From Trypanosoma brucei (Eukaryota), in contig CM000208.1 in assembly GCA_000002445.1 (NCBI GenBank), positions 2,240,001-2,304,000 on the forward strand: a DNA stretch of 64,000 nt. The letters run 5' to 3'. Shown one piece after another: positions 28,480-64,000 of the stretch. The position numbers and the translations under genes were made by a program. How positions within the stretch are numbered: the first letter of the stretch is position 1; every line of letters begins with the position of its first letter. The notes below the pieces were generated by a model. It saw nothing but the letters and a program-made list of their open reading frames with translations, ran no database searches and was not told the origin of the DNA.

Positions 28480-29763
28480 TCACATGCGCAAAAAAATAAA
28501 CAAATGAAGTGGGGAATCTATTGAGTTATACATTTGTAAGCTACCGCTATGGGGTGCGGTGGAATTCTGTTCTTCACAGGGGTGACGTAACGCATGTTGT
28601 GTTCATATTTCTTTTTTTTTTTAATTCCTTCAGCTGTTTTTTTCTCTTTTCTTTTTAGTTTATTTACATGTATGAGAACATATTATTATGTATTGTTTCA
28701 TCCATTGTGAAGTCATTGGTTTATTATTTTTATGATTATTATTGTTGTTGTTGTTCCAGTCGAATTTATAAGTCACTTACTGCTTGTGCATATTGCTTCC
28801 GTGTCTTCTTCCGCATGTTTGAATTGCTGCATTTTACTGCTTTTCTTTTCTTTTTTTTATTTTCGTTCTTTTGACTCCCCCACTAATTTATATTCATCGC
28901 AAATACAAATGTTTATTTGTACTTTAGCATTAGCGTTTCAAGCGAACACATATTCAAGTGGAGCCGAAACAAACAGAAAACAAAACCAAGGGAATAAGCA
29001 CTAAGTGCAAGTGACGGACAAGACAAATACATCAAACAGTTTATTTTCAAAAAAAAAAAGGAGGAAATATAATTACATTTATACAAGGAAAAAAGAGAAC
29101 AAACATAGGAAGAACAGTAGAAAAATAACTTGTGCAGGGAAATAACCGCGACTTCACACATATATATATATATATATTTGGTTCAAGGAAGAGAGTCTTA
29201 CTCGCCTCGGGGGGAAACCACCCAATCTCAGTGAAGGTTAGTTTGTTTTTTTTTTTGTGTGTGTGTGTCTGGACGTAAAAGAAAAGAGAGGAAAGAAATA
29301 AAAGAAAAAGGAAGAAAGAAAGAAAACAAAAAGTGACGTGAAGGCGGAGATCAAACAAAAAGGAAGAATAAACACCGTACGGGTAGATTCATACCTTATT
29401 GGTAAAGTCGGGGCGCTCGCGTGTTTGGGTGTTTGGGTGTTTGTGTTTGTTTTTTTTTTTACTTAGAGGAAAAGTAAAAGAGGAAAGGGGAAAAAAAAAC
29501 TCCAGCGCAGCCTCTTCTTTTCCACATTTTTACGGGTTAGTTGTCATTTGACGGGTTCACGTCCTTTTGGTTTCTTTGTTTACTTCGGTTACTTTGTTTA
29601 TTCCTTTCTTTTCTCGCCTCCCGCCTTTTTCTTCTTCTTACTCTTACACTTTTCATTGTGTCATTTACTGTTACTAATTATAATTGTCATTCGCTCCTCT
29701 TTTCAATCCACTCCATTTATTTTTCCAATTCCGCTTCGACTTCGAACTCTAATTTTGGTTTGA

Positions 29764-29795
<32 letters not shown>

Positions 29796-31107
29796 CCAAA
29801 CAAACAAATAAATATATTTAAGAGAGAAAAGAGGTGCAGAGGTACTGTAACTTTCAGTTACACGTTCAATCGAGATTTACTTTGCCGTTGAGCCGGAAAA
29901 TATAAATAAATAAATAAAAAGCGAAAGTGAAAGTGAGAAGGTTGCACGTACGCCCATACCAAATAAATATTTTTAAGTAAATAGAGGAAGTAACAGGAAA
30001 AGGTGTTGTATTTTGTATTTATATCTCTTTTCCTCATACGTGGTGAAGAGCAGAGGGTCTCCAAGCGTGAAGCAGAGCTCTTCATCATTGTCTCAACTTC
30101 CATTCCTTCTATTGTGTTTTTTGTTTTTTTTTCCTCCTTTTTGTGTTTGTGTGTTTGTGCGTGTCTTTCCTATATAATTTGCATCGCTTGAAACTGCAGG
30201 CTTGTAAGTTTGTTTTTTGAAAGGATTGAACTGCGTATTTTTGTAAGTCTTTGATTGCGCAGTCACATTAATTTTTTTTTGTTTTGTTGTGTTTCGTCTT
30301 CCGCGTGGTTTGATAAAAGGATCAACTGAAAGAAAAGGGAACGAGGAACTAAACGAAACGAAAAGAGGCAAAAAAAGAAAAATAATAATAATAATACACA
30401 CACACACACAAGGGGGAAAAAACAAGGACTGGTTCTGTCGTCGTTTGGTTGGTGTTGGTTTCTTTTTTTTTTTATTCTGAATTTAGTTGTTACATTTTTA
30501 ATTATCTTCTGGTTGTGCTGCTTGGGAAGTTCACCTTCCCTCAGAGTTGAACAACTGAGTTGGCCATTATTTGTGTGTGTTCGTTTCTGAATTTTGTTTA
30601 GTTTTAGTGTAGATTTTCATTACTTCTGTTCATTCATTCATTCCTTTTTGGTCTTTTGTGTTCGACTGTTTTTGTTGTTGTTGTTGTTGTTTTCTTTTTG
30701 CACTCATAAAGTCGTACGAGTGGCAAATCCCAAGGGATTAAATTGAGCGAGTGTGGAAAGAGGAAAAACAAAAAGAGAGAGGAGAAATATATATATATAT
30801 ATATATATAATACGGAGTCACTGATTGGACTGTGGTTGATTTTTTTGTTTGGTCGATTTGTCGAGTAAACAGAAAACGAAGACGGAGAGAAGAGAAAAGA
30901 AAAGAGATTTTAACGCGTTTTGTTTGTTGTTTCTCCTCCGTATCGAAGTGATCACTACTTGTCGTTCCCCTTATACATTAGGAAAATAAATAAATAAATA
31001 AGAGCCACACTGCTCTCTAGGAGGGAGAAAGAGAGAGAGAGAGTAGGGTTCTTTTTATTTCTTTTGGTGCTTGTTCGATCGTCACGGGAAGTTGCAGCGA
31101 GCTCAGG

Positions 31108-32919
31108 ATGGAACACGAAATTCATAAGGGAATGGAGGCTATAGTTGAGCAATCTGGTGATAACCGGGCTTCTGGTGAAGTAAATGCTGAAAGTAATGTA
31201 CATAGCCCTGCTTCTGTAACCGCAAAAGATGGGTGTGAATTTGCCCGGCGCCGGATATCGACACGGGGAATACGAGGATCGGTGCGGAGTCCATATTATT
31301 CTCCCACTCGCTCATCCGCAATGTCTCCCGTTGGTAATGGAGAAAAAGGTGACCAAGAGAAGGAGGAGGGTGAGGGTGCTGCTGAGCCGGATGTGGTACC
31401 TGATATTGATGTCATTCCTCGATATCGCAGTCATCCAAACAGGTCTCAGGGAAGTTTTTCACATCTCACCTACAATGTACATTCACCAGCACACTCGCGT
31501 ATGAGCAGCTATGAGCGTATATCATGGGACTCCCAGGCGTGGAAAGATGTTTTTCCAGAAAATGCCTTCTTGGGTGATCAGTCAAAGGATCTCCTCCGTC
31601 TGCCACACTCTTCCATGGATTTTTATCACGGCTCTCCCACTCAGCAATGCCGCAAGCACGTCCGCTCCCTCGCGACGTGGGGCAAAGTTGAAGGAGATGG
31701 CTCTCCAGAGTTGTTGGCGACGCGTAATAGCTCCCCCATGCGGCCAGCTGGGTGTCAATCACTCGTTAGTACTCTGGATGCTCTACCGGAACCAATCTAC
31801 GAAACTGCTCCATTGGGTCATCAACATTGTTTCAGTCTCTCGAGTCGTAAAGACGCCGCATATCTGAAAACTGAGGCTGGAGGCGAAGCCACAGCTGTCA
31901 CCAACGAGGCGGGAGAGCAACCATCGAAGGGGCCTGCAATGACACATGTATTGGTGGCGTTTAAAAGCTTGTATGGAGTGTACTACGTTCCTGAAGCACA
32001 GTGGGGAACAATTGGAATTGGAGATCTCGTATCAGTGGAAAGTCACTCTGGGGAGAACACCGGGAAGGTTATTTGTGATTTGACACATATCATGAGTGAA
32101 GCATCGCACATGCCAGCTGAAATGGCTCAGTGTCCGAGACATGTTCTGTGGCCGGAAGACGCATCGGCCCCTCTAGAAACGATTAACCCCAAAACAAATG
32201 AGGAGGTACTGCAGCGTCTCCCCCGCGTACTACGAAGGGGAATGAATAAAGGTAAAAAGAGACTGTACTACGCCCGTCGACGCGAGAATGAGGCTCTTGA
32301 CGTCGGCAATAGGCTCGTTCGGGACCGGAACTTCAATTTGGCTCTCACCAGTGTAGAGTATCAAGTCGATTTCAAACGGATAACTGTGTTTTGCAAGGGC
32401 GATAGGTCGCACGTTGATCCTTCCGAGGTTCTCATCTTCTCGCAGCAACTGGCCTCCAGTCTCCGCGGCTCAATTGTTAGTGTGGTGTTCGCCAACGAAA
32501 TTCCTGAGAGGTTGGATGTTACGGGATCTATAACTAAAGCCGCCTTCCAGGATATATACACCGATGCACTAGCTAAGATAAAGGAAGCAGAGAGTGCACA
32601 ACCGCAGCGACAGGCATCATCATCACCTGTGAGACAATCCACAACAGCAGCAGGGGGGCCTCATAACAACATGCGCGCGTCACACATTTACCCCGATCCG
32701 CAATTAGCCGCAATGAACCATACGCCTCTCATGCCATTTTATGGTGTACCGCCTCCCTTTTCTCCACCCGTTGCGCCGGGAGCGCCACCCCTAATGAATG
32801 CAGTAGGTATGAATGGATTATATGGAATGACTGGAGTCCCTCCCATGAATTGGGGAATGCCCACACCACCTCCTTATATTCCTCCACATTTACCTCAAAA
32901 TGTACCGGGAAGAATGTAA
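31108..32919 (+). CDS. PSP1 C-terminal domain protein (putative RNA-binding / post-transcriptional regulator), Pro-rich C-terminus
   Basis: 603 aa. The segment VAFKSLYGVYYVPEAQWGTIGIGDLVSVESHSGENTGKVICD ... LALTSVEYQVDFKRITVFCKGDRSHVDPSEVLIFSQQL matches the PSP1-C conserved core (EYQWDRKKLTFYYTADRRIDFRELV). The C-terminal 100 aa is Pro/Met-rich (PPFSPPVAPGAPPLMN...PPYIPPHLPQNVPG). Confidence 0.7.
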   Translation: MEHEIHKGMEAIVEQSGDNRASGEVNAESNVHSPASVTAKDGCEFARRRISTRGIRGSVRSPYYSPTRSSAMSPVGNGEKGDQEKEEGEGAAEPDVVPDIDVIPRYRSHPNRSQGSFSHLTYNVHSPAHSRMSSYERISWDSQAWKDVFPENAFLGDQSKDLLRLPHSSMDFYHGSPTQQCRKHVRSLATWGKVEGDGSPELLATRNSSPMRPAGCQSLVSTLDALPEPIYETAPLGHQHCFSLSSRKDAAYLKTEAGGEATAVTNEAGEQPSKGPAMTHVLVAFKSLYGVYYVPEAQWGTIGIGDLVSVESHSGENTGKVICDLTHIMSEASHMPAEMAQCPRHVLWPEDASAPLETINPKTNEEVLQRLPRVLRRGMNKGKKRLYYARRRENEALDVGNRLVRDRNFNLALTSVEYQVDFKRITVFCKGDRSHVDPSEVLIFSQQLASSLRGSIVSVVFANEIPERLDVTGSITKAAFQDIYTDALAKIKEAESAQPQRQASSSPVRQSTTAAGGPHNNMRASHIYPDPQLAAMNHTPLMPFYGVPPPFSPPVAPGAPPLMNAVGMNGLYGMTGVPPMNWGMPTPPPYIPPHLPQNVPGRM

Positions 32920-52877: not shown

Positions 52878-54353
52878 ATGATATGCCGCACATCTTTTCT
52901 GCGTAAACCCAAGGTAGTTGTTGTTGGCACGGGATGGGCGGGCTGCTACTTTGTGAGAGACACAAAACCACAATTAGCAGAACTCCACGTTTTGTCCACA
53001 CGTAACCATCACGTACTGACACCCCTTCTCCCGCAAACAACCACCGGTACGCTGGAGTTCCGCTCTATATGTGAGCCCATCACTCGCATTCAACCGGCAC
53101 TCGCACACCTTCCGAACCGTTTCTCACGTTGCTTCGTGTATGACATCAACTTCGAACAAAAGCGGGTTGATTGCATTAGCGTAGACAACACCAGCGTCGG
53201 GCCACACGCCTTAGTTAACACATTTGATGTTCAGTACGACAAACTAGTGTTGGCGCATGGTGCACAGCCAAACACGTTTAATGTTCCCGGCGCTGTGGAG
53301 AGGGCGTGTTTCCTTCGGGAGGTAAATGAAGCACGTACCATCCGCAAACGACTTGTGCAGAATATCATGACGGCGAATTTGCCCGTAACAAGTGTCGAGG
53401 AGAAGAAACGCCTTCTGCACACCGTAGTTGTGGGAGGTGGGCCCACGGGCGTTGAATTCTCCGCAGATTTGGCCGAGTTCCTGCGCGACGACGTGAAGAA
53501 CATCAACCCCGAGCTCGTTCAATTCTGCAAAGTGACAGTACTTGAGGCCGGAGAGGTTTTCAGTACATTTGATTTACGCGTGAGGGAATGGGGCAAGCGG
53601 CGGTTAGATGCCCTCGGCGTGCGAATCGTGAAGGGTAATGTTGTGGCTGTGCAAGAGAAGGAGGTGATCACAAAGAGTGGTGAAGTGTTCTCTACCGGCT
53701 TGGTGGTGTGGAGCACAGGTGTCGGACCCTCACCACTAACAAAAGAATTAAAGGTGGACCGAACGCGACAGGGGCGTATTTCCGTCGATGAGCATTTACG
53801 GGTACTGCGCGACGGCGTCCCAATTCCCGATGTGTATGCAATTGGGGACTGTGCAACCAATGAAAGCAACCCGCTACCTACTTTAGCTGCTGTCGCTTCT
53901 CGTCAAGGCGTGTATCTGGCAAAAAAAATCAACGCGGAATTAGCTGGTAAGCCATTCGCCACGCCGTTCAAATATGAGAGCCTCGGAAGCATGGTGAGTC
54001 TTGGTACTTCCAGCGCTGTTGTGGAATTAAATGGGCCACGCAAACTTGATTTTGTTGGGCTTAAGGCACTCTTCTTCTGGCGTAGTGCATACCTCAGCAT
54101 TGTGGGTTCGTGGCGTAATAGGCTTTATGTCATTGTCAACTGGCTTGGAAGCGCAATTTTTGGCCGGGATTTGACACTCATTAACGACTACAATGACGAG
54201 CGGACGTGGCTCTCTCTGGCGTCAGAGGGGGCGGCGCGCGAGAAAGTGAGCAGAATGAACAAAGTTAAAACCGATGGCGACGGCAGTAATGGAAATGAAA
54301 CAACAGCCCGTTCAAAGGTGGACTTACCCGCGACAAAGAAACAGAACGAGTAG
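52878..54353 (+). CDS. NDH2: type II (alternative, rotenone-insensitive) NADH dehydrogenase
   Basis: 491 aa. Two Rossmann motifs (KVVVVGTGWAGCYF and TVVVGGGPTGVEFSADLAEF), the AIGDCA quinone-region motif, and a C-terminal amphipathic membrane-anchor region. Confidence 0.9.
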   Translation: MICRTSFLRKPKVVVVGTGWAGCYFVRDTKPQLAELHVLSTRNHHVLTPLLPQTTTGTLEFRSICEPITRIQPALAHLPNRFSRCFVYDINFEQKRVDCISVDNTSVGPHALVNTFDVQYDKLVLAHGAQPNTFNVPGAVERACFLREVNEARTIRKRLVQNIMTANLPVTSVEEKKRLLHTVVVGGGPTGVEFSADLAEFLRDDVKNINPELVQFCKVTVLEAGEVFSTFDLRVREWGKRRLDALGVRIVKGNVVAVQEKEVITKSGEVFSTGLVVWSTGVGPSPLTKELKVDRTRQGRISVDEHLRVLRDGVPIPDVYAIGDCATNESNPLPTLAAVASRQGVYLAKKINAELAGKPFATPFKYESLGSMVSLGTSSAVVELNGPRKLDFVGLKALFFWRSAYLSIVGSWRNRLYVIVNWLGSAIFGRDLTLINDYNDERTWLSLASEGAAREKVSRMNKVKTDGDGSNGNETTARSKVDLPATKKQNE

Positions 54354-54442
54354 GTGAAGTTTGTGTACCAAGCAACACAATTGACCTCCCTTCGATTCTC
54401 ACACCCACGTGGCCGCTGAACATACAATTAAGGACGTGTAAA

Positions 54443-54473
<31 letters not shown>

Positions 54474-55682
54474 TTTGTATATATGTTCTTAATTATGATG
54501 ATTTATTGATGTAACATCCGCGATAATTTTTTTTTGTTCGACTCTGTTTATTTCCGATTTTTTTTTCTTTTCTGCTCCCCGTTTTTTTTTTCCTGTGTAC
54601 TCGTTGTTTTGTTTTGTTTTTTTACCTCCAGAGGTTGATGGCCGCTGGCTTTAACGTGATACCCCCCCCTCCCCCTTCAACCCGCCGCGTACGCGTGGAT
54701 ATGCACCTAAACGTACAATTGAAGATGACACAAACACGTGCGTTTGCAATTTTGTGAATGAATGCGGTGAATGTTATTGTTTTTTTTTTGTATATTTGTA
54801 AGCGTGTGTAAGTGGGTGGGAAGGAGGAAGGTGGAAAAAAGTGTTTTTGGGGTGGGAGATGGAACACCTCCTATGTTACGGGATGTGAATATATAAATAA
54901 ATAAATAAATAAATAACGTTTTTAATTTATGCGAATGGAAGAACGAAGTGTGGTTTCATTCGCATGTGCGTGGGGGGAAAAGGAAGAAAAAAAAAAGAGA
55001 AGCGGGTGGGGGTTGGGGGAAATAAAATAAAATAAAAAGGGTAGGGAAGAGGTATTGTTACTTGGTTTCTGATAAAGGCGGAGAGGAAAGGGAACAAGTC
55101 AAACACATACAAAACAAAAGAATCATATGTTTGTGAAAAGTTGAGGAAAGTGACGGTCAGGCATTGGTTGATGAGTAAAGTCGACGTGTATGACACATGC
55201 GCACTCTCTCCTCATTTCACAAAATGAAAAAATATATATATACATTCTTTAAGGGGGTTTTCCTGAACCTTTTTGCCTCCTCTAAACACGCGCGGAAGAA
55301 GGAAGATTCAAACTCGAATAACTCAAGTGTGAAGAGAAAACAATAATAATTAAAGCATCTGGAGTGTGGGGGGGGGGAAGGAGGAAAACAAAGGAGAGGT
55401 GGAAGTCGCGGCATACTTCAGCACAAATGACTCTTTGAAACTTTATTTAGCTGTCGTTTATGATTTATTTTGTTTTTCTCTTTTACCGTTCATTATACTG
55501 GCGGTCGACTGAAATTCTAACCCAATAAATGAATACGCCACGCGACGAGAGAAATAACACTGAAAGAAGAGGGGAAACAAATGTGGCAACATGAAGGAGT
55601 CGAAGGAGACAAAATGACCAGCGTTTAATCAACCGTCACGACAAACTTGGCGCATCCGGTAGGTTTTCAACCTTTCGTCCTT

Positions 55683-55711
55683 TGCTGCTGCTGCTGTTGT
55701 TGTTGTTGTTG
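55683..55711. repeat. (CTG)4(TTG)5 trinucleotide repeat
   Basis: ctgctgctgctgttgttgttgttgttg in the ORF-free region downstream of NDH2. Confidence 0.85.
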
Positions 55712-58550
55712 AGGGGATCCAAAAGGTCGTTGCAGTTCAGTGGTGGTAACTTCGTGTTGGATGGGTTTCACTCATCTTAAAGGAAAGCGGACGAAGGAAT
55801 AATAGCAAAGGGAAAAAAAAACAAAACAAAAGGAGCTAAGCTTATCACATTATTCACTGCTGAGTGGTAGGAGGGAGGTGGGAGAGAAAGAAAAACTGAA
55901 TGAAGAAGGTAATGTTCACATATTATTATTTATTTATTATTATTATTTTTTACAGAGAACTAATCATTGATAATGTATGTGTGTTTGTTTCCACTAGTTT
56001 TCCTGTTGTTGATGTTGTTTTAAGCAAAAAAAAAAAGGAGGCGGGAAACAAGCGCCGATGCCGCTACTGCTTTGGTGGCAGTGGGGTGCGGCAGTAGTGA
56101 TGGCAGCCCATTGATAAGTTACCGTTACGTAAAACATTTATTGCGTCCCTACAGCGCGAAAGTTTCCACACAAAAATAACGTCTCTCCTTCAGAGACCCT
56201 GTTAACTATGTACTCCACTCTGAAACAAAGAGTAATCGGTTCATGTGGCAGCATTCCCTTCTGTATTTCTAACACCACTACTTCATCTCTTTCACCTCTT
56301 TTAATTTCCAACACGCATTCAAGCCATGAGCTGGTACGACCCGAAAGTCTCGTAAGCAATGACAAAAAAAAGGATGAAATGGATGTGAACATGCATATAT
56401 TATTAAACAAATAAATATATGAGAGAGGTTGGTTGCACCAGCCTTTGGCACGTATTGAGCTGAAGAAAGCCTACCGAAGGGGGAGAGGACTGCAGCGAAC
56501 TGAATGGGGTGGGTCCAAACAATGAGAAGTGGTCGCGACGAGGACCCGTCAATTTGTTTGTTTGTTTTGTTTTGTTTTGTTTTTTTTGGTGGAGGGAGGA
56601 AGCGAATACGCCCGTAAAAAAGGTGTAATCTTATGAGCCTGCATTACTTTTTAGCCCGTGCAAAGGGGGTTTGTGGCGGGTTAGTGGACGGAAATGAAAC
56701 TGTTGCAGTGGCTCCTGCGCAGCTCTCCTTTCATCACCCGCTCCATTTAGCGGGTCATAGCTGTGTTTGTCGTAGCAAAGGGGTGATGCATGTTGGGGTA
56801 AACAATACAATATTTTGGTAGCGTTATACGCTGCTTTGTGTGGGGTGGCACAAATGCAAGTGTTGGTCTCTGTTCTCTTTACTAGAATAATATATGAAGG
56901 GAGCAAGTCAGTCAGCAAATTGCTGGGAATCCGTCGCTGCATCTCTGTCAATGGTTCCCACCACCGCCGTACTCCGAGACGGGGACCGCAGCTGATTGAC
57001 ACGTAGCCTTCAAGGAGTCTGTGACGGTTTTACTTGATGGGTGGAAGCCCTTTCCACTGAGGAGACTGCTGAGAATGTGAAATGCCCATTGGTGAGAAGT
57101 AATAGCGAGGAACCCACCGAGCCTCACAGTATCTGGGAAAGAAAATAACAGAAATAATTATGGTAAATGAAAACCGGGGAAGCTACCCGCCTTCGTCCCT
57201 TCCACAAACATATTAATAGCACATCGACTCATTCGTAAGAGATATTTTAATGCTGCTGGGCCAATGTTGGTGAAGTTAGAAGTGGTTTCCTTATCTTGGT
57301 GGCAGACGGGAAGAGGAATATTAGGGACATCCCGTCCCAGTCTTTTTCCACACTATTACCTTCTAAAATTGTGTTTGAACCTCCACAAAACCAAGAAGCT
57401 AACATCGTAATGGGGCATGCCACACGGTGGTGAGAGGAATTGTGTGTGGAAGGAGGCGGAGTTGGCCACGCCAAGGGGAAGGAAAGGGGGGAAGATTATA
57501 AGAGGCAAATAAAACATTACTTAAAAGTGACAGTCAATATCGAAACATGCAGAAAACGTTGTTAAGGGATTGTGTGTCCACAAGGTCATCCAATTGATCA
57601 ATCGTTGGGTAGCTCAAGGAGTTATTATGCTGATTTGGTTGAATACGAACCCCTCGAAAGGCTCAAACACTTCAGTTGGTTGAGAGGTTGCGCGCACAAA
57701 TCACCGTTCCAACAGGACTGCAGAAAGATGCATCAAGTGGAAAATAAAACAAAGAAGACTTAAACGGTGAGAAAGGCTGGCAAATGTGCCACTGCACGCT
57801 ACTCAATCTTGACTAACGGTACTTCCAAATTAAATGTATATCATGGAACGGGAGTCATTATATTTAGCAGGAAAGGCGATGTAACTGAATTCTACAAGGG
57901 TTTTAGTGGGTTGGCTTGTAGTTATCGTGAACAAAGGTGACGCGATGGAAATGAATTTCAAGGGGCTATTGAAAACGATGCGACACGAAGTAAATGTGGC
58001 CATGCTAAATATTTTCATATCACTTCCCCCTCGCCGCCGTAAAGGTAGAATTTTTTGCATCATGTGGAAATCCACCCTTAAAGTCACCAACCGTCAGGTG
58101 TTCGTCTTCATGCAGCACAGTTTTTCTTTATTTTTTTTTATATTTTTGTCTCGCTGCAACGGAGGGGATCACAGAAGTGAATATGTTGGAGTGCATCGCC
58201 CCAAGAATTTGGCAGCAAAACAGTGGTAGCACTTCAAATTTGGTTTTTTTGACTATATTCACGACTGGAATAATAACACTGGTAATATAAAAATACGGCA
58301 ACGAATAATCGGACGAAATTTTTTTTCGAAGTACCACGTAAACTGTACTTTGTGTGTGCCATCAAAACAGAAACAAATCGTTATTTAAAAAAAAATAAAA
58401 ATACTTTCGGATACCCAGTGACATGTCTATTATTTTTACTATTTTGTTTTATTTACCCTCTTATTTATTTGTGGTTTTGAAAAAAAAGAAATACTTTGTG
58501 CATAATCATACAGACACAGTACAGTTTAGAGGTTGGGTTGCTAAGATAAT

Positions 58551-58745
58551 ATGAAAAAAGGCAACCGTCGCGGCCGCTACCGAAAGAGACGAAGCTCGAG
58601 ATCGCCTTTATTTTGGGTTGCGTTGGCTGCATTGGTTTTGTTGACTTTGTCGACAGGGTTGAATGTATGGCTTGCTGTTGAGTACGCATCCAAGAAAAAG
58701 GTGGAAACCAATTTGGAGCTGGCCGAGAAGGCATGCGGATTATAG
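58551..58745 (+). CDS. candidate small single-TM protein (64 aa), unverified
   Basis: ATG ORF MKKGNRRGRYRKRRSSRSPLFWVALAALVLLTLSTGLNVWLAVEYASKKKVETNLELAEKACGL: basic N-terminus, one clean TM helix, short C-terminus. It is preceded by a polypyrimidine tract (58430-58480) and AG. It is the only plausible coding signal in a 4.7 kb ORF-free stretch. Confidence 0.3.
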   Translation: MKKGNRRGRYRKRRSSRSPLFWVALAALVLLTLSTGLNVWLAVEYASKKKVETNLELAEKACGL

Positions 58746-59096
58746 CGTTGCCATGCTAGGCAGGTACCAACCTTGTTCTCCCTGTGGTGATGCACATTTA
58801 TAATGGACTTTTTTTTTTAGTTGTTGTTGTTACATTGTCGGTACATGCGGAAGAAGGATTGTTAGTGAATTTCTTTGTGTGTTTATTTCTCACAGGCTGT
58901 TGCGGCAAAAGTATTAAATTCCTTCTATTGTGTGAACCTACAGGACAAAGGAGGAACAGGGATGGTTTGCTTTTAAAACGATGCCACCATTTTTCTTCTA
59001 TGTTGTGCACATATGCGTTGTTGAATAAAATGAAGTAAAGAGCCCGGCCGAGTGGAGTGGCGCGGTGTGGGAATACATAAAAATAATAATAAGAAC

Positions 59097-59849
59097 ATGA
59101 GCACCTTCGCGGTACTAAATGGTGTCATAATATTAGCGGTATTCGTTGTAACCGCTGCTTGCTTAGATGATCAAAAGCCTATAAGGGAGGGAGGGAAAGC
59201 GCTGAGTGGAGAGGCTGCAAAACATCTCTGCCGCATCAAACAGATAAGTGAATTGCTCGGAAGCCGTGCAGAGTTTGAGCTAATTAGGGACGGATCCAAG
59301 TTTACCAGCGAGCGACAAGTCCTTCGTAATGTCCAGGATAAAATAACGGAAGGGGTCAAAGGCATAAATGAGTTGTTCGGTAGGCACTGTCGGCGAGTGT
59401 CCTTGGGAATTGAAGGAGGTGGGAGCGACATGCTTTCCAACCCAAATTGCGAAGATAGCGATAAAAAAGAGGGAACGGGGGAAGCCACTGACCAAGGCAG
59501 TGGGACGCTGTCTGAAGAGGGTATTATCCAGTGCGAACACGGTAATTTTCTGCGTGATTTCCTAATTCGGGGTGCCCTCGAGGCATACAGAAGTCAAATG
59601 GAGCAGTGGGAAAAGAAAAAACCGACAGAAGGAAACAAAACGAGTACGGAGGTTAAAGGGGATGAATCGTCAAAAAAACACGAGGACCAATGCCAGCAGA
59701 TGGGATACAGCGTTCATGGGGCCTGCACCGTATCAGAGCAAAAATGGAGGCAACATCTGGAAGAGGCTGTGAAGCTCATGGAAGGCATAATTGTAGTGAA
59801 AAAGGAAGACGTTTGTGGGGTATCAAAAGAAGGGGAGACGCAAAAATAA
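59097..59849 (+). CDS. hypothetical secreted protein (signal peptide, 8 Cys, Lys/Glu-rich)
   Basis: The track start is GTG 59052; the first ATG is at 59097 (MSTFAVLNGVIILAVFVVTAACLDD, a signal peptide). The mature part is hydrophilic with no C-terminal TM or GPI-like hydrophobic tail. No family recognised. Confidence 0.5.
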   Translation: MSTFAVLNGVIILAVFVVTAACLDDQKPIREGGKALSGEAAKHLCRIKQISELLGSRAEFELIRDGSKFTSERQVLRNVQDKITEGVKGINELFGRHCRRVSLGIEGGGSDMLSNPNCEDSDKKEGTGEATDQGSGTLSEEGIIQCEHGNFLRDFLIRGALEAYRSQMEQWEKKKPTEGNKTSTEVKGDESSKKHEDQCQQMGYSVHGACTVSEQKWRQHLEEAVKLMEGIIVVKKEDVCGVSKEGETQK

Positions 59850-62800
59850 ATGCGGGTGACAGTGGAAGGCAATGGGGAAGTGGGGTGTAGGGAATGCCTT
59901 TTGTTTTCATTTCTTTCTTTGGGGTCCGTTGGTATCGGTAGCTGCAGGCATATAGTTGCTTGAAAGTGTGCGAGGGTAACTGCGGACGTATATGTAAATA
60001 TGCACAAATTTGTGCTTTTTCTTATTCCGGGTATTTAGGTGTGAATTATGTGTTCCCTGGAGGTAGAGTGTCATCCATATGCGTGCCCTTTGGTAGGACA
60101 CGATCTAAGATAAGGTGTATTGCGTTGGTATTCGTGATTTTTGAAGTGAGTTTCCACCGGAAAGTGTGCGTTTGTACTTAACTATTATGTCCCCCTTCTC
60201 CTTTGTTAAGGTAAGGGGGTTGAATGAACTCTGAAGCGTAAGTGTGCAGAAGTTGGCCGGAGCTCATCGGCCGTTAGGGTGCATTGACGTTTAGAAGATA
60301 AGAGGAATGAGAGCAGCGATTAAATCTTGTGCATCAACAAAAGTCAGATATCATGTGTGAGAGGGCGTGATGCAGGGAGGCAACACTAAGTTTCCGCAAA
60401 GTAATATCGGGGGCAATTCTGTAGTGTTGGTGCAGACTCCGCATTGAATCGAGAATCGGCAAATTGGGGATAGCGGTTCGGTTACCTCCCGTGGTTAGGT
60501 TAGGTGAGGAAAAGCGAAGAGGGGAAATGCACTGAATTGGGGGGCGGGAGCTGGTGACGCCTCAACGATCTTAATGCATAGCGTGACCCCTGTGTACCAA
60601 GCCGTGACGTAAGAGGACGTCATGCATTCGCAAAAGAACGAAAGCAGTTATGGCGTGTGGTGGGGGAAACGCGTACGGGTTTGAACGTGATGCCAGAGTT
60701 TTGGGTCAATACAAGGGGAACACACCAACGAGGGCAACAAGAACTGCTGCAACACGTGGTGAAGCGCAAGACAAGTACCACACCTTCCTTTTCACAGATG
60801 GGTGTGTGGATTGTAGCCCTCTCCCTGCAAGAAAGTAAGGTGCACCACACGAATTACCGATGTTGGTCGAGTTGACGCTTTTCCTCCCCGCCAGTTGAAA
60901 CGGGGGAGAGCAGGGTAGCCCGGGGGGCATTGGATCCCTCCAAATGATGGAGATAGCCTCGCTTTGTGTAGGGCTGAAATCTGAAGGCAAGCACAAATAC
61001 GCTTAGCATGTAAGTGGATCCGCACTCACGAGTGCCTGGGAATGGCATAACCGGATGACGCACAGGCAATCGATGTGAGGAGCAAGGAGGGGAGATGTTG
61101 CCGCCAACGAAGATTACCGGTCTTGAATACACAAGGGTCGTGAATGATAGGGTGCAAACGAAAGGATTGGGAGAGAGAAGATTAGTTGTGCTTCGTTCCC
61201 GGGGGGGAAAAGCAGTCAAGGAATAGGGTATAATTGAATGTAGGAAACCTGCTTCCTGTCGTGAAAGGGGAAATCAATGACCGCAGGAAATTATCCTATC
61301 CGCAGTAAATCGTATTGGTGCATGTTAACAGTTCCAAGGAAAGAAGTGAGGAGGACCTGGTTTTGCCTCACAAGAGCACTTTTTGGAGGGAGCTACACCA
61401 CGCAAAACGACAATTTTGAGCAGTTTTGGGGGGTAAGGAGACTTGATTTGGGGAGGCGGAGGAGAGGAGTCTAATGTTCATTTAGCAGCGGTGGGCCGGT
61501 GAAGAACGGAATTGTGTATGAACGGACCGCAAGTGGTAAAGTTTCCAGAAAGCGATGGAAGTAAGTGCTAATGGTCGGGACGGCCCTCGGAAGCAGCACC
61601 AGGAGCAAAAGGAAGGGGGAAAAGATGCCGAAATATTTATTGTTACATTGAAAATGGTGCACTTTATGTCGTACATTTCTGTTGTGAACAAAACCGTAAG
61701 AATAAACAAACATAACTTTATCCTGATCCCAACCGAACGAAAGAGTAAGGGAAAGGGAGATGTGTTTAAGATCAACTTCTTTTTCCATCGGTTGCTAAAT
61801 GCGTCGCCAGAGGTTTTGTTCATAAATCCCGTCTTTTGAGCATCGATGACGCCGTCGGAAGACGGCTTTTATGAAGTACCGCCTCCTCGTAGGCGACACT
61901 TGTCTTCTCCCATTCATTGCTGGTAGTTAAAATATTCATACTTGCCTAAAAGTTCTGCATCGTATGCACAATCTTAACACCATCCAACATCATACATTTG
62001 GGCGTATTTGCGCGTATCTTCACTTATATATTCCAGCAGCTCCTCTTGCCGTGACCCCTTCCTCCGAATCGTGTCTTCGTGCCGGCAATAAGTAGTATTG
62101 CGTTGGCTAAAAGCATCGCATCTGTGGTCAAATATTTAAAATGTGTGTAGTACATTGGAGGTGTACTGTGTGTTTTTCCCTTCGGACATGCAACCTGGAT
62201 TCAAAAATGCAGAGAAAACGTCGTTCGGTATTATATTCACGCACATTGGCAACTAATTCGTTTATTTTCGTTGCTGTAGGGTAACAAATGTCGCCAGGGG
62301 TCTCCGAAGCAAGGTGGTGAAGTGGACAAGGGTTCACCGGTTCCGTCCACAATTTTCTGGATAATGCGAGTGTTAATGAAAGGACGGAAGGGGACACAGT
62401 TAAAAATGACGACACCCAAGTAAAAAGTAACAGCGGTCATATCCCGCGAGTTTGTGACGCAGTTGCGGCGGCCAAGCTTTTCTCCGCGTAGTGTAGGGCG
62501 CCTACCGCTGGGATACTCGATTGTATCCGTGCCTACGTTGGTTTTGATAGGGTGCCGTGAACATGTGCCGACATAGACTTGGATTTACAAAAATATGCAG
62601 CGTGTTGGTGTTTGCGAGGGTACTGCAACACTGGTGCTTGATGGGGTTAGGTGTTGTTTTTTTTTTTTTGCGCAACCAGACAGAAAAAAAGAGGTCGTAG
62701 AATATGAACGGAGATTCGAGTGCGCCAAGAGTACTCAATTAATCTGGCACCATGCAGGGGAAGATCACGCCAACGACGCTTTATGCGGCTGGAAAATTTT

Positions 62801-63110
62801 TTCTACGTCTCAGATGGAAGTTGTGGCAAAACGGGGAAGTAAAAGACGGGGGATTGTAAGAGGTGGATGAAAATGGGCAAAAAGAAAACTCGCTAAGCAA
62901 TTCGCGCACAGCTGTAAGCCACGTGAGGGATGCATGACCTGGGAGGGTTACATTTAAATCTTCGAGGATAAATAGCCCGTATGGGCGGTAGAAGAAAGTA
63001 GGGATATACTGACATCTAAAAGCAGGACTACGACTGTTAGCGTCACCAACCTCCGGGACGCTATGTATGTGAGGGAGATTGATCGGTAGTGGAGAGTGTA
63101 CGGGTTTGTT

Positions 63111-63440
63111 ATGAAGCGAAAAATTATGAGCCTTGACTACGAAACTCGGTATTTTCATTATCCTTATGGAAAGGTGATCAAAAGGGGTGCCATACTACAT
63201 TTTGCGGGGTCGAGTAACGTGTGGAAGGAGACAATACCCAGGTACCTCAGCGAGATGAGTTGGTTCAAAGCTCTAAAAAATTCTTTCACAGAACGAGAGG
63301 CTTACAGGCGGCTGCTAGAAACAACTTCCGTTGAAATACACTCTGCAAGGGGTGCCTTTAGGTATGTAAAGCTCGGTACTGTGTGCCCCATCTCTAACGT
63401 TTCAAACCCAAATTGGTTATCTGGGGAGTTGAGAAAGTAA
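63111..63440 (+). CDS. small hypothetical ORF (109 aa), weak
   Basis: The track start is TTG 63096; the first ATG is at 63111 (MKRKIMSLDYETRYFHYPYGK...). No domain recognised. It lies in a region otherwise lacking ORFs and could be spurious. Confidence 0.25.
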   Translation: MKRKIMSLDYETRYFHYPYGKVIKRGAILHFAGSSNVWKETIPRYLSEMSWFKALKNSFTEREAYRRLLETTSVEIHSARGAFRYVKLGTVCPISNVSNPNWLSGELRK

Positions 63441-63534
63441 TGCATACGGTCAATCTGCATTGAAGATTACACCCGTAATCCGCGGCACATCGCATCGCAC
63501 TCTCTTATCCCTTACATACTCATTGCAGAAACTG

Positions 63535-63558
63535 ACGTTTTATTTTTGTTTTCAGGAA
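63535..63558 (+). promoter_or_regulatory. polypyrimidine tract + AG acceptor abutting the start codon of the terminal partial gene
   Basis: gacgttttatttttgttttcag|gaaATG. Confidence 0.45.
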
Positions 63559-64000
63559 ATGTTGAGGAGGATCAAGGGTATTTCAACTCGTAAAAAGGGA
63601 GGGAGATTATATTTAATAGTGATTGCGCTGCTGATAGTGGTCGGGGTTATGGCGACAATGGATATAAGAAGTAGTCATACGGAAACCGGTCACGGGTTGA
63701 GAAAAGAAAATTTCCACAGTAGTTATGCACCAAGGATTAGTTATGTTGTGGTGCAAAACAGACCCTCCCCAGGGTGGTGTAGAATGCTCTTAAGCTCTAT
63801 ACTCACCAATGTGTCGGTGCTTACGTTGGGTGTGGAGGGTAAGTACGGGCATGTAAGAAGATGGACCTGGATATATAATTATGTATGGCGGGGAGAAGCG
63901 CGTGAGAGCGATGTGATTGTGATATTCGATGGGGGAGACACTTTTTTCACAGAAACACATTTAAGAGAAGATGCCATGAAGTATTTTCTGGCAACAACGC
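63559..64000 (+). CDS. 5' part of a type II membrane protein gene (runs off the window), possible Golgi glycosyltransferase-like topology
   Basis: ATG at 63559 immediately follows the polypyrimidine tract and AG (ttttatttttgttttcag). It translates MLRRIKGISTRKKGGRLYLIVIALLIVVGVMATMD... with a short basic cytosolic tail and a signal-anchor TM, then ...VIVIFDGGDTFFTE... There is no stop before the window end, so it is not in the supplied ORF track. Confidence 0.55.
   Translation, partial: MLRRIKGISTRKKGGRLYLIVIALLIVVGVMATMDIRSSHTETGHGLRKENFHSSYAPRISYVVVQNRPSPGWCRMLLSSILTNVSVLTLGVEGKYGHVRRWTWIYNYVWRGEARESDVIVIFDGGDTFFTETHLREDAMKYFLATT

What the first reader, a model, noticed from the sequence alone, without database searches (positions are those of the whole stretch)
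54354..59096. 4.7 kb ORF-free stretch downstream of NDH2 with a lone candidate 64-aa single-TM ORF
No ORF over ~120 aa exists on either strand for 4.7 kb. The rest of the unit has a gene every 1-3 kb. The stretch has intergenic-type repeats ((AT)12 at 54451, (CTG)(TTG) at 55683, many A/T runs) but also non-repetitive sections at 56100-57800. The only coding-like signal is the small ORF at 58551-58745 (basic N-terminus plus one TM), which has its own polyY/AG. Possible explanations are a very long NDH2 3'UTR, a snoRNA/ncRNA locus, a small-protein gene, or a decayed gene.
Basis: seen in the sequence. Interest (0 to 1): 0.5.

Follow-up and report, generated by a model that had tools for sequence, protein, structure and literature searches.

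The report
NDH2 3'UTR, lncRNA-like transcript, microprotein mRNA
The 4.7 kb gene-free stretch after the Trypanosoma brucei NDH2 gene is three already-catalogued RNA units in a row: a 1.8 kb NDH2 3'UTR, a 2 kb apparently non-coding transcript, and a 426-nt mRNA whose 64-residue membrane protein already has published ribosome-footprint and peptide support.

Summary
Window 54354-59096 has no ORF above 123 aa, and the longest stop-to-stop frame (132 codons) is what shuffled sequence gives. The repeats and the 64-aa ORF sit where stated.

The window is T. brucei TREU927 chromosome 10 (v4 2,240,001-2,304,000). Published maps divide the interval into three units:
- **NDH2 3'UTR:** 54354-56171, with a predominant poly(A) site at 1818 nt (Kolev 2010).
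- **Tb10.NT.104:** 56324-58374, a 2050-nt trans-spliced, polyadenylated, low-abundance transcript with no supported ORF.
- **Tb10.NT.105:** 58489-58915, a 426-nt mRNA whose first AUG opens the 64-aa ORF.

That ORF has published ribosome-footprint coverage (25.8x, 100% of the ORF) and two unique peptides (Vasquez 2014; Ericson 2014), and Ericson lists it as 'Tb only'.

My own tests agree:
- AG acceptors follow pyrimidine tracts at both mapped 5' ends.
- Poly(A)-to-splice-site spacings are 153 and 115 nt.
- There are no Rfam or C/D-box hits, no Pfam relics, and no trace of the syntenic neighbour genes.
- The ORF has no homologue among 1.84 billion proteins.
- The protein is identical in four T. 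brucei-group genomes, and the only substitutions are synonymous.

Verdict: real, but already known and ordinary for trypanosomes.

The parts
52878..54353 (+). NDH2 (type II NADH dehydrogenase) CDS, Tb927.10.9440 / old ID Tb10.6k15.0960. This is the upstream anchor gene.
   Evidence: A 491-aa ORF. Pfam families Pyr_redox_2 and NDH2_C. 99% identical to the T. b. gambiense NADH dehydrogenase. The Kolev poly(A) table row for Tb10.6k15.0960 back-calculates to this stop codon.
54354..56171 (+). NDH2 3'UTR up to the predominant poly(A) site (1818 nt). The averaged 3'UTR is 1501 nt with dispersion 321, so 3' ends are heterogeneous. It contains (AT)n, a 46-nt pyrimidine tract (54551-54596), purine-rich runs and (CTG)n(TTG)n.
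   Evidence: Kolev 2010 Table S13: predominant PAS 2296171, 3'UTR 1818. The window offset of 2,240,000 was verified with exact ORF matches. GC is 0.39.
56172..56323 (+). Processing spacer: a pyrimidine-rich tract (56258-56309, 79% Y) and the AG acceptor (56322-56323) for Tb10.NT.104.
   Evidence: Read directly from the sequence. The PAS-to-SAS distance is 153 nt, against a published median of 142 and interquartile range of 123-178.
56324..58374 (+). Tb10.NT.104: a 2050-nt trans-spliced, polyadenylated, low-abundance transcript with only short unsupported ORFs. It is lncRNA-like.
   Evidence: Kolev 2010 Table S7 coordinates 2296324-2298374, abundance value 0.75. Seven of its listed ORFs match the window exactly. 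It is not among the Ericson conserved or MS-supported set. Its six largest ATG ORFs are absent from the Vasquez Ribo-seq candidate list. There are no Pfam or Rfam hits.
58375..58488 (+). Processing spacer: a T-rich tract (58428-58479, 75% Y) and the AG acceptor (58487-58488) for Tb10.NT.105.
   Evidence: Read directly from the sequence. The PAS-to-SAS distance is 115 nt.
58489..58915 (+). Tb10.NT.105: a 426-nt mRNA with a 62-nt AUG-free 5'UTR, the 64-aa CDS, and a 170-nt 3'UTR.
   Evidence: Kolev 2010 Table S7 coordinates 2298489-2298915. Ericson 2014 Additional file 1 gives ORF_1 at [63-254]. The 5'UTR has no ATG, and there is an A at -3.
58551..58745 (+). CDS of the 64-aa single-pass membrane microprotein (MKKGNRRGRYRKRRSSRS - TM - KKKVETNLELAEKACGL). 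It is annotated as DPX39_100101700 in T. b. equiperdum.
   Evidence: Ribosome-footprint coverage 25.82 per nt over 100% of the ORF, and 2 peptides matching no other CDS (Vasquez 2014 Table S5). Butter et al. MS '2P', 1 predicted TM, 'Tb only' (Ericson 2014 Additional file 3). The protein is identical in 4 genomes, the 2 and 1 substitutions are synonymous, and there are no indels. Best codon-usage score of 23 ORFs. AF2 gives one helix at 19-62.
58916..59096 (+). Spacer plus the presumed 5'UTR of the next gene, a 250-aa ISG65/75-like 'T. brucei spp.-specific protein' (CDS 59097-59849). The exact splice acceptor is not established here.
   Evidence: A pyrimidine tract at 58985-59006 and several AGs at 59034-59056. 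Pfam ISG65-75 at E=1.5e-10. Name. Its poly(A) site is at window 60106.

Best explanation
The interval is not one feature. It is a run of three RNA-processing units inside a single plus-strand Pol II polycistron of T. brucei chromosome 10.

Coupled trans-splicing and polyadenylation at two internal pyrimidine-tract/AG sites cut the primary transcript into three RNAs:
1. The NDH2 mRNA, with a long and heterogeneous 3'UTR. The predominant end is 1818 nt after the stop codon, at window 56171.
2. Tb10.NT.104 (56324-58374), a 2.05 kb capped (spliced-leader) and polyadenylated RNA. It is low in abundance, and none of its short ORFs has conservation, peptide or footprint support. It belongs to the intergenic lncRNA-like class that is common in this parasite.
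3. Tb10.NT.105 (58489-58915), a 426-nt mRNA. Its first AUG has an A at -3, follows a 62-nt leader with no upstream AUG, and opens the 64-codon ORF.

That ORF is translated into a T. brucei-specific microprotein with three parts: a disordered polybasic N-terminus (net +10), one transmembrane helix (about residues 19-43), and a 21-residue C-terminal tail.

I infer the following about the protein. The positive-inside rule puts the N-terminus in the cytosol. The hydrophobic helix ends only 21 residues before the stop codon, so it is most likely inserted post-translationally, like a tail-anchored protein.

What is shown: transcript ends, footprints and peptides come from the literature, and the sequence signals, lack of homologues and lack of relics are shown here. 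What is inferred: the non-coding status of Tb10.NT.104, and the topology, insertion route and function of the microprotein.
For: Window identity and offset: 13 ORF peptides listed for Tb10.NT.104.105 and .106 in Ericson 2014 match the window exactly, at coordinates equal to Kolev's v4 coordinates minus 2,240,000.

NDH2 3'UTR: Kolev Table S13 gives Tb10.6k15.0960 a predominant PAS at 2296171 and a 3'UTR of 1818 nt. This back-calculates exactly to the NDH2 stop at window 54353.

Transcripts: Kolev Table S7 lists Tb10.NT.104 (2050 nt) and Tb10.NT.105 (426 nt). Novel transcripts in that study are defined as trans-spliced and polyadenylated.

Sequence signals: AG dinucleotides lie immediately 5' of both mapped 5' ends and are preceded by pyrimidine-rich tracts. 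PAS-to-SAS spacings are 153 and 115 nt, against a published median of 142.

Translation of the 64-aa ORF: footprint coverage of 25.82 per nt over 100% of the ORF and 2 unique peptides. Ericson lists Butter et al. MS 2P, 1 TM, Tb only. It also appears twice in the Vasquez RIT-seq table.

Own checks on the ORF: it has the best codon-usage score of 23 ORFs in the interval. The protein is identical in 4 genomes, with only synonymous changes and no indels, while the flanks carry many indels.

Non-coding character of the rest: ORF lengths are at shuffle expectation. There are no Pfam relics in 73 stop-to-stop segments. There are no Rfam hits. The six largest NT.104 ORFs are absent from the Ribo-seq candidate list.
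Against: - Transcript ends come from one procyclic-form data set (T. b. rhodesiense YTat 1.1, 2010). Other stages or strains may use other sites, and read-through NDH2 isoforms are not excluded.
- A strong 46-nt pyrimidine tract with AG at 54630 lies inside the mapped 3'UTR and has no mapped use.
- The protein can give only about one MS-friendly tryptic peptide region (VETNLELAEK and its missed-cleavage forms). The two peptides are therefore probably not independent.
- The footprint phase value (23.9%) is uninformative.
- The Vasquez table was cut when it was stored, so the absence of NT.104 ORFs from it is not absolute.
- Only 2-3 substitutions fall in the ORF, so the synonymous-only pattern is weak (roughly p = 0.06 for two).
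- The RIT-seq signal rests on 14 versus 0 reads, from a library of 0.6-1 kb inserts that also overlap the neighbouring units. I could not read the column headers of that table.
Confidence: 0.85

Rival explanations
1. The whole 4.7 kb is a single very long NDH2 3'UTR. On this view the 'novel transcripts' are minor processing by-products and the small ORF is not a gene.
For: T. brucei 3'UTRs range up to about 6 kb. NDH2 poly(A) sites are dispersed (dispersion 321). NT.104 and NT.105 are low in abundance (values 0.75 and 1.16). NDH2 is followed by a 2.2-2.7 kb CDS-free gap in T. cruzi, T. melophagium and L. major too, so a long 3'UTR looks ancestral.
Against: The predominant PAS is at 1818 nt and the averaged one at 1501 nt, not 4.7 kb. 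Spliced-leader 5' ends are mapped at 56324 and 58489, exactly after AG acceptors. Ribosome footprints and peptides fall on the ORF.
Confidence: 0.05
2. Tb10.NT.105 is a non-coding or junk transcript. On this view the 64-aa ORF is a chance ORF, and its footprints and peptides reflect pervasive, non-functional translation or false identifications.
For: There is no homologue outside T. brucei in 5.8 billion or 1.84 billion proteins, and none in syntenic loci of five other trypanosomatids. The codon score is only at the 10th percentile of real CDS windows. The two peptides probably come from one tail region. The ORF lies in a lineage-specific island beside a 'T. brucei spp.-specific' gene.
Against: It is the first AUG of a short dedicated mRNA with an AUG-free leader. 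Footprint coverage is 100% at 25.8x, and the protein is one of only 24 of 2021 candidate CDSs with peptides. The sequence is identical in four genomes, with synonymous-only changes. It is the top-ranked ORF of the interval by codon usage. It is listed among candidate CDSs with RNAi loss of fitness.
Confidence: 0.2
3. The non-repetitive core (about 56.1-57.8 kb) is the decayed remnant of a protein-coding gene. Candidates are the tyrosine phosphatase that follows NDH2 in other trypanosomatids, or an ISG- or ESAG-type gene.
For: This is a synteny break point. T. cruzi, T. melophagium and L. major have NDH2 followed by a tyrosine phosphatase. T. brucei instead has species-specific genes and ESAG3-like fragments further downstream. 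GC in 56.5-57.5 kb rises to 0.47-0.48.
Against: tblastn with all downstream neighbours from T. vivax and T. cruzi, and with the T. brucei ISG-like and ESAG3-like proteins, gives nothing better than E=0.28 inside 54354-59096. Pfam on all 73 stop-to-stop segments of at least 40 aa gives only chance-level hits. There is no internal duplication in the window.
Confidence: 0.07
4. The interval hosts a snoRNA or other structured small-RNA locus.
For: Some T. brucei snoRNAs are embedded in long 3'UTRs or in lncRNA precursors such as grumpy.
Against: There are no Rfam matches at gathering score in the whole 64 kb, and none at E<=1 in 54300-59200. My C/D-box scan found 0 candidates on either strand. There are no tRNAs. 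Ericson's filter removed snoRNA-containing transcripts from the Kolev set, and Tb10.NT.104 was retained.
Confidence: 0.03

Closest known systems
Kolev et al. 2010 'novel transcripts' Tb10.NT.104 and Tb10.NT.105, and the mapped 3'UTR of Tb10.6k15.0960 (NDH2)
   Same: These are the same loci. Coordinates coincide base for base after subtracting 2,240,000, and all listed ORF peptides match exactly.
   Different: Nothing differs. This is an identification rather than an analogy. The published data are from procyclic forms only.
T. brucei small-proteome candidates: Ericson et al. 2014 (one of five T. brucei-specific MS-supported small proteins) and Vasquez et al. 2014 candidate CDS getorf_Tb927_10_v5_+_21450
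   Same: Identical 64-aa sequence. Both record one predicted TM, two peptides and full footprint coverage.
   Different: Most validated small proteins in that set are conserved in other kinetoplastids, and this one is not. I found no individual functional or localisation study of it.
Intergenic trans-spliced, polyadenylated lncRNAs of T. brucei (Guegan et al. 2022; e.g. grumpy)
   Same: Tb10.NT.104 is longer than 200 nt, intergenic within a polycistron, spliced-leader capped and polyadenylated. It has lower GC than the CDSs, is low in abundance, and has no supported ORF.
   Different: No embedded snoRNA was detected, unlike grumpy. Whether it is on the list of 1428 lncRNAs could not be checked, and no function is known.
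Tail-anchored (C-terminally anchored) membrane proteins
   Same: A single hydrophobic helix ends 21 residues before the C-terminus. There is no N-terminal signal peptide, and the polybasic N-terminal segment is predicted to be cytosolic.
   Different: The protein is only 64 aa and its cytosolic part is 18 disordered residues. Insertion pathway, membrane and topology are untested. This is a resemblance, not a demonstrated membership.

Membership tests
Trypanosomatid trans-spliced, polyadenylated Pol II transcript (applied to Tb10.NT.104 and Tb10.NT.105) | An AG splice acceptor immediately 5' of the transcript start, preceded by a pyrimidine-rich tract | tested here: met
   AG at 56322-3 follows a 79%-pyrimidine tract (56258-56309). 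AG at 58487-8 follows a 75%-pyrimidine, 65%-T tract (58428-58479).
Trypanosomatid trans-spliced, polyadenylated Pol II transcript (applied to Tb10.NT.104 and Tb10.NT.105) | The upstream poly(A) site lies about 100-200 nt before the next splice acceptor (coupled processing) | tested here: met
   The spacings are 153 nt (56171 to 56324) and 115 nt (58374 to 58489). The published median is 142 with an interquartile range of 123-178.
Trypanosomatid trans-spliced, polyadenylated Pol II transcript (applied to Tb10.NT.104 and Tb10.NT.105) | Spliced-leader sequence on the 5' end and a poly(A) tail on the 3' end of the RNA | not testable with these tools
   No read data were available here. Kolev 2010 states that all 1,114 novel transcripts in Table S7 are trans-spliced and polyadenylated.
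T. brucei lncRNA (applied to Tb10.NT.104) | Longer than 200 nt with low coding potential: no conserved, domain-bearing or codon-biased ORF | tested here: met
   The transcript is 2050 nt. Its longest ATG ORF is 94 aa, with a codon score of -0.028 against 0.152 +/- 0.063 for CDS windows. There are no Pfam hits. It is absent from the Ericson conserved or MS-supported list.
T. brucei lncRNA (applied to Tb10.NT.104) | Poor ribosome association and no peptides | tested here: inconclusive
   Its six largest ATG ORFs are absent from the Vasquez candidate-CDS table. That table was cut when stored, and shorter ORFs were not checked.
Translated small ORF / microprotein (applied to 58551-58745) | Ribosome footprints across the ORF | not testable with these tools
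   From the literature only: coverage of 25.82 per nt over 100% of the ORF (Vasquez 2014 Table S5). The phase value of 23.9% is similar to the long candidate CDSs in the same table and is not discriminating.
Translated small ORF / microprotein (applied to 58551-58745) | Peptides that match only this ORF | not testable with these tools
   From the literature only: two peptides that match no other annotated or unannotated CDS. An in-silico digest shows that only the C-terminal tail gives MS-friendly peptides.
Translated small ORF / microprotein (applied to 58551-58745) | Evolutionary conservation of the reading frame | tested here: inconclusive
   Within the T. brucei group the protein is identical in 4 genomes, with 2 and 1 synonymous substitutions and no indels. 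Outside T. brucei there is no homologue. Divergence within the group is too low for a dN/dS test.
Tail-anchored membrane protein | A single TM helix within about 30 residues of the C-terminus and no N-terminal signal peptide | tested here: met
   The hydropathy maximum is at residues 19-43, with 21 residues after it. The N-terminus is polybasic, not hydrophobic. AF2 gives one helix at 19-62 and a disordered 1-18.
Tail-anchored membrane protein | Post-translational, GET/EMC-type insertion with a cytosolic N-terminus | not testable with these tools
   This needs cell biology. It is inferred only from the positive-inside rule and from the TM lying close to the stop codon.
snoRNA locus | A match to a known snoRNA family, or C/D-box architecture | tested here: not met
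   Rfam found nothing at gathering score or at E<=1. My C/D-box scan found 0 candidates, against 0.44 expected in shuffles. H/ACA-like single hairpins were not scanned beyond Rfam.
Pseudogene / decayed gene | Frame-broken similarity to a known protein or domain | tested here: not met
   tblastn with 16 neighbouring proteins from T. vivax, T. cruzi and T. brucei gave no hit in the interval. Pfam on 73 stop-to-stop segments gave a best E of 5.5e-4, which is chance level for 73 queries.

The most novel reading that the evidence does not exclude
The 64-aa protein could be a recently born, T. brucei-specific, tail-anchored-type microprotein that is needed for fitness of the mammalian-stage parasite. 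It is encoded in a lineage-specific island that replaced the ancestral NDH2-phosphatase adjacency. It also appears twice in the Vasquez 2014 table of candidate CDSs that lose RNAi-library reads after induction (14 to 0). If RNAi or start-codon mutants confirmed this, it would be a clean example of a de novo essential membrane microprotein in a parasite.
Probability: 0.15. Interest if true: 0.45.

Novelty: already known. Interest (0 to 1): 0.15.

Why it matters
It matters little beyond annotation hygiene. The case shows that a long ORF-free stretch in a trypanosome polycistron need not be one UTR or junk. It can hold separately processed RNAs, including a microprotein mRNA that older GenBank annotations omit.

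All three components were catalogued in 2010-2014. The only open biology is whether the T. brucei-specific 64-aa membrane protein and the 2-kb lncRNA-like RNA have functions.

The comparison with other trypanosomatids adds two small points. A CDS-free gap of about 2 kb after NDH2 is found in T. cruzi, T. melophagium and L. major. In T. brucei and T. vivax, synteny breaks immediately after NDH2.

Tried and rejected
- **snoRNA, tRNA or structured RNA:** Rfam at gathering score on the full window, Rfam at E<=1 on the interval, ARAGORN, and my own C/D-box scan all found nothing.
- **Decayed gene:** three tests gave nothing. These were tblastn of downstream neighbours from T. vivax and T. cruzi and of the T. 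brucei ISG-like and ESAG3-like proteins, Pfam on the 9 largest ORFs and then on all 73 stop-to-stop segments of at least 40 aa, and a self-blastn for duplications.
- **Homologues of the 64-aa ORF:** the word-indexed search of 5.8 billion proteins and the exhaustive phmmer search of 1.84 billion representatives returned only the identical T. b. equiperdum entry. One other hit was spurious, a weak match summed over about a dozen repeats of a 1224-aa repeat protein. tblastn in syntenic loci of T. vivax, T. cruzi, T. melophagium and L. major found nothing.
- **Nucleotide conservation of the NDH2 downstream region across species:** none was found. The T. cruzi versus T. melophagium control also shows none, so this test has no power at that distance.
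- **Logan contigs carrying NDH2:** all end 110 nt after the stop codon, inside the (AT)n repeat. I read this as an assembly break, not a poly(A) site.
- **Literature I could not reach:** Parsons et al. 2015 (re-annotation by ribosome profiling) is not held. The Guegan 2022 lncRNA tables are not held. T. congolense NDH2 has no contig in the collection.
- **Not used:** the bacterial promoter/terminator scan, because it does not apply to a trypanosome.

Full report
**1. What the window is**

Every long ORF in the window is on the plus strand. The run of genes around the finding is UBX/SEP protein, methyltransferase, KH protein, AIR synthase-related protein, BCS1-like AAA protein, PRPP synthetase, then NDH2. 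The same run occurs in T. b. gambiense, T. equiperdum, T. vivax, T. cruzi, T. melophagium and L. major.

Thirteen short ORF peptides listed for the transcripts Tb10.NT.104.105 and .106 in Ericson et al. 2014 (PMC3942054, Additional file 1) occur exactly in the window. Their positions equal the Tb927_10_v4 coordinates in Kolev et al. 2010 (PMC2936537, Table S7) minus 2,240,000. The window is therefore T. brucei TREU927 chromosome 10, v4 2,240,001-2,304,000. The gene ending at 54353 is NDH2 (Tb927.10.9440, old ID Tb10.6k15.0960).

**2. The observation**

It is correct.
- Between the NDH2 stop (54353) and the next start codon (59097), the longest ORF from any ATG/GTG/TTG start is 123 aa, on the minus strand.
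- The longest stop-to-stop frame is 132 codons. Shuffles of the same sequence give 112 +/- 20, and 15% reach 132. The interval has exactly the ORF content of non-coding DNA.
- The (AT)n at 54451 and the CTG/TTG run near 55683-55711 are there.
- The 64-aa ORF is at 58551-58745. It has a net +10 N-terminus and a hydrophobic segment at residues 19-43.
- The gap is the largest between long ORFs in the window.

**3. What is there**

Published single-nucleotide transcript maps divide the interval.
- **NDH2 3'UTR.** Kolev Table S13 gives Tb10.6k15.0960 a predominant poly(A) site at 2296171 and a predominant 3'UTR of 1818 nt. The averaged 3'UTR is 1501 nt and the dispersion is 321. Subtracting 1818 from 2296171 gives 2294353, which is window 54353, the last base of the NDH2 stop codon. 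The 3'UTR therefore ends mainly at window 56171.
- **Two further transcripts.** Kolev Table S7 lists Tb10.NT.104 at 2296324-2298374 (2050 nt, abundance value 0.75) and Tb10.NT.105 at 2298489-2298915 (426 nt, 1.16). The paper says its novel transcripts are trans-spliced and polyadenylated.
- **Sequence signals.** The sequence agrees independently. AG dinucleotides lie immediately before both 5' ends (56322-3 and 58487-8), each after a pyrimidine-rich tract. The distances from the upstream poly(A) site to the acceptor are 153 and 115 nt. The published median is 142 nt.

**4. The 64-aa ORF**

It is ORF_1 [63-254] of Tb10.NT.105. It is the first AUG of the mRNA, after a 62-nt leader with no upstream ATG, and it has an A at -3.

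Published evidence:
- Ericson's Additional file 3 records 64 aa, '2P' in the Butter et al. mass-spectrometry column, one predicted TM, and 'Tb only'. The paper mentions five T. brucei-specific MS-supported proteins.
- Vasquez et al. 2014 (PMC3973304, Table S5) list it as getorf_Tb927_10_v5_+_21450. Footprint coverage is 25.82 per nt over 100% of the ORF, with two peptides matching no other CDS. Only 24 of their 2021 candidates had peptides.
- It also occurs twice in their RNAi-fitness file, with values of 14 reads before and 0 after induction and adjusted p of about 0.006 and 0.003. The text describes that file as listing candidate CDSs with significant loss of fitness. I could not read the headers. 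The read numbers are small and the library inserts of 0.6-1 kb overlap the neighbouring units.

My own checks:
- The protein is identical in the window, T. equiperdum OVI, T. b. equiperdum IVM-t1 and T. b. gambiense.
- The two and one substitutions are synonymous and there are no indels, although the flanking non-coding DNA carries many indels.
- Its codon-usage score is the best of the 23 ATG ORFs of at least 40 codons in the interval. The score is 0.075, against 0.152 +/- 0.063 for real CDS windows and -0.28 for intergenic windows.
- It has no Pfam family.
- It has no homologue in 5.8 billion or 1.84 billion proteins other than its own T. b. equiperdum annotation, DPX39_100101700.
- AlphaFold2 without an alignment gives a disordered 1-18 and one helix at 19-62, with mean pLDDT 78.

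Caveat: an in-silico digest shows that only the C-terminal tail (VETNLELAEK and its missed-cleavage forms) gives usable peptides. The two peptides are therefore probably not independent.

**5. Tb10.NT.104**

It has several short ORFs (Ericson lists at least eight of 25 aa or more), the longest ATG ORF being 94 aa.
- It is not in Ericson's list of conserved or MS-supported ORFs.
- The six largest ORFs are not in the Vasquez candidate list, although that file was cut when stored.
- Codon scores are near zero or negative.
- There are no Pfam hits and no Rfam hits.
- GC is 0.44, against 0.52 for the NDH2 CDS.

It fits the class of intergenic, spliced-leader-capped, polyadenylated lncRNAs described for T. 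brucei. I could not check whether it is on that paper's list.

**6. Rejected alternatives**

- **snoRNA locus.** No Rfam match at any threshold, no C/D-box candidates, no tRNAs.
- **Decayed gene.** tblastn with the downstream neighbours from T. vivax and T. cruzi, including the tyrosine phosphatase that follows NDH2 in T. cruzi, T. melophagium and L. major, found nothing in the interval. The same was true for the T. brucei ISG-like and ESAG3-like proteins. Pfam on all 73 stop-to-stop segments gave chance-level hits only.
- **Single 4.7 kb 3'UTR.** This is contradicted by the mapped poly(A) and splice sites.

**7. Context**

- **Outside the African trypanosomes.** NDH2 is followed by 2.2-2.7 kb without a called gene and then a tyrosine phosphatase. 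A long NDH2 3'UTR is therefore probably ancestral.
- **T. vivax.** The unit ends soon after NDH2 at a strand switch.
- **T. brucei.** NDH2 is followed by species-specific material. This comprises Tb10.NT.104, Tb10.NT.105 and a 250-aa ISG65/75-like 'T. brucei spp.-specific protein'. Next come Tb10.NT.106 and .107, then ESAG3-like sequence.

The small protein thus sits in a lineage-specific island. That fits both a recent origin and the lack of homologues.

**8. Verdict**

It resolves into three components that were all published between 2010 and 2014. It is ordinary for a trypanosome polycistron, and I score interest low.

The only open questions are functional: whether the T. brucei-specific membrane microprotein and the lncRNA-like RNA do anything.

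The most notable thing I saw lies elsewhere in the window, a 2.2 kb stretch with no ATG at all (see Noticed in passing).

Noticed in passing
window 28909-31108 (+ strand): A 2199-nt stretch has no ATG trinucleotide at all and ends exactly at the start codon of the 603-aa ORF 31108-32919, which has a weak PSP1-domain hit. Expected ATG counts are 26 (first-order Markov) to 47 (base composition). The next largest ATG-free gap in the 64 kb is 395 nt. The stretch covers Kolev's 'putative non-coding' transcript Tb10.NT.103 (window 28928-30878, 1950 nt). This looks like strong selection against upstream AUGs, either in a very long AUG-free 5' leader or in an AUG-free lncRNA.
   Followed up: partly
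window 54551-54596, with AG at 54630: The strongest pyrimidine tract of the interval (46 nt, 89% pyrimidine) lies only about 200 nt after the NDH2 stop codon, inside the mapped 1.8 kb 3'UTR. A search of the held Kolev 2010 supplementary tables found NDH2 only in the poly(A) dispersion table. It was not in the table of genes with alternative 3'UTR processing, and the full splice-site and poly(A) tables were cut when stored. The tract could be a regulatory U-rich element or a stage-specific alternative processing site.
   Followed up: no
window 59097-59849 (+): The next gene encodes a 250-aa protein with an N-terminal hydrophobic signal-like segment and a partial ISG65/75 domain (Pfam E=1.5e-10, profile positions 150-269 of 281). 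It has no C-terminal transmembrane segment. It is named 'T. brucei spp.-specific protein' in T. b. gambiense, and no homologue was found outside T. brucei. Its mapped 3'UTR is 257 nt.
   Followed up: partly
window 59850-64000: This is a second long-ORF-free stretch. It holds the catalogued transcripts Tb10.NT.106 (60211-61823) and Tb10.NT.107 (61893-63409). ESAG3-like pseudogene fragments at about 63111-63999 match the 411-aa ESAG3-like protein of T. b. equiperdum (E=8e-26 and 6e-14). The putative ESAG3 genes Tb927.10.9460 and Tb927.10.9470, which by their gene numbers should lie shortly after NDH2, are reported as missing in T. evansi STIB805.
   Followed up: partly
L002 4823-5809 (T. b. equiperdum IVM-t1, GCA_003543875.1): NDH2 is called as a truncated 328-aa protein in this assembly, because of two indel events in the CDS relative to the window. 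The same assembly has 16 indel events in the 3'UTR alone. Long-read homopolymer errors therefore seem likelier than a real pseudogene.
   Followed up: no
L003 12044-12547 and 13768-14079 (T. b. gambiense), corresponding to about window 54921-55424 and 56645-56956, minus strand: The T. b. gambiense annotation calls two minus-strand 'genes' (167 and 103 aa) inside the interval, antisense to the polycistron. In the window the first is split into ORFs of 89 and 65 aa. They have no Pfam hits, and one lies in a low-complexity purine/pyrimidine region. They look like spurious calls.
   Followed up: partly
L009, L010-L014 downstream of NDH2: NDH2 is followed by a CDS-free gap of 2.2-2.7 kb and then a tyrosine phosphatase in T. 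cruzi, T. melophagium and L. major. T. vivax instead has a strand switch 1.7 kb after NDH2, and T. brucei has species-specific genes. In T. brucei and T. vivax, synteny therefore breaks immediately after NDH2.
   Followed up: partly
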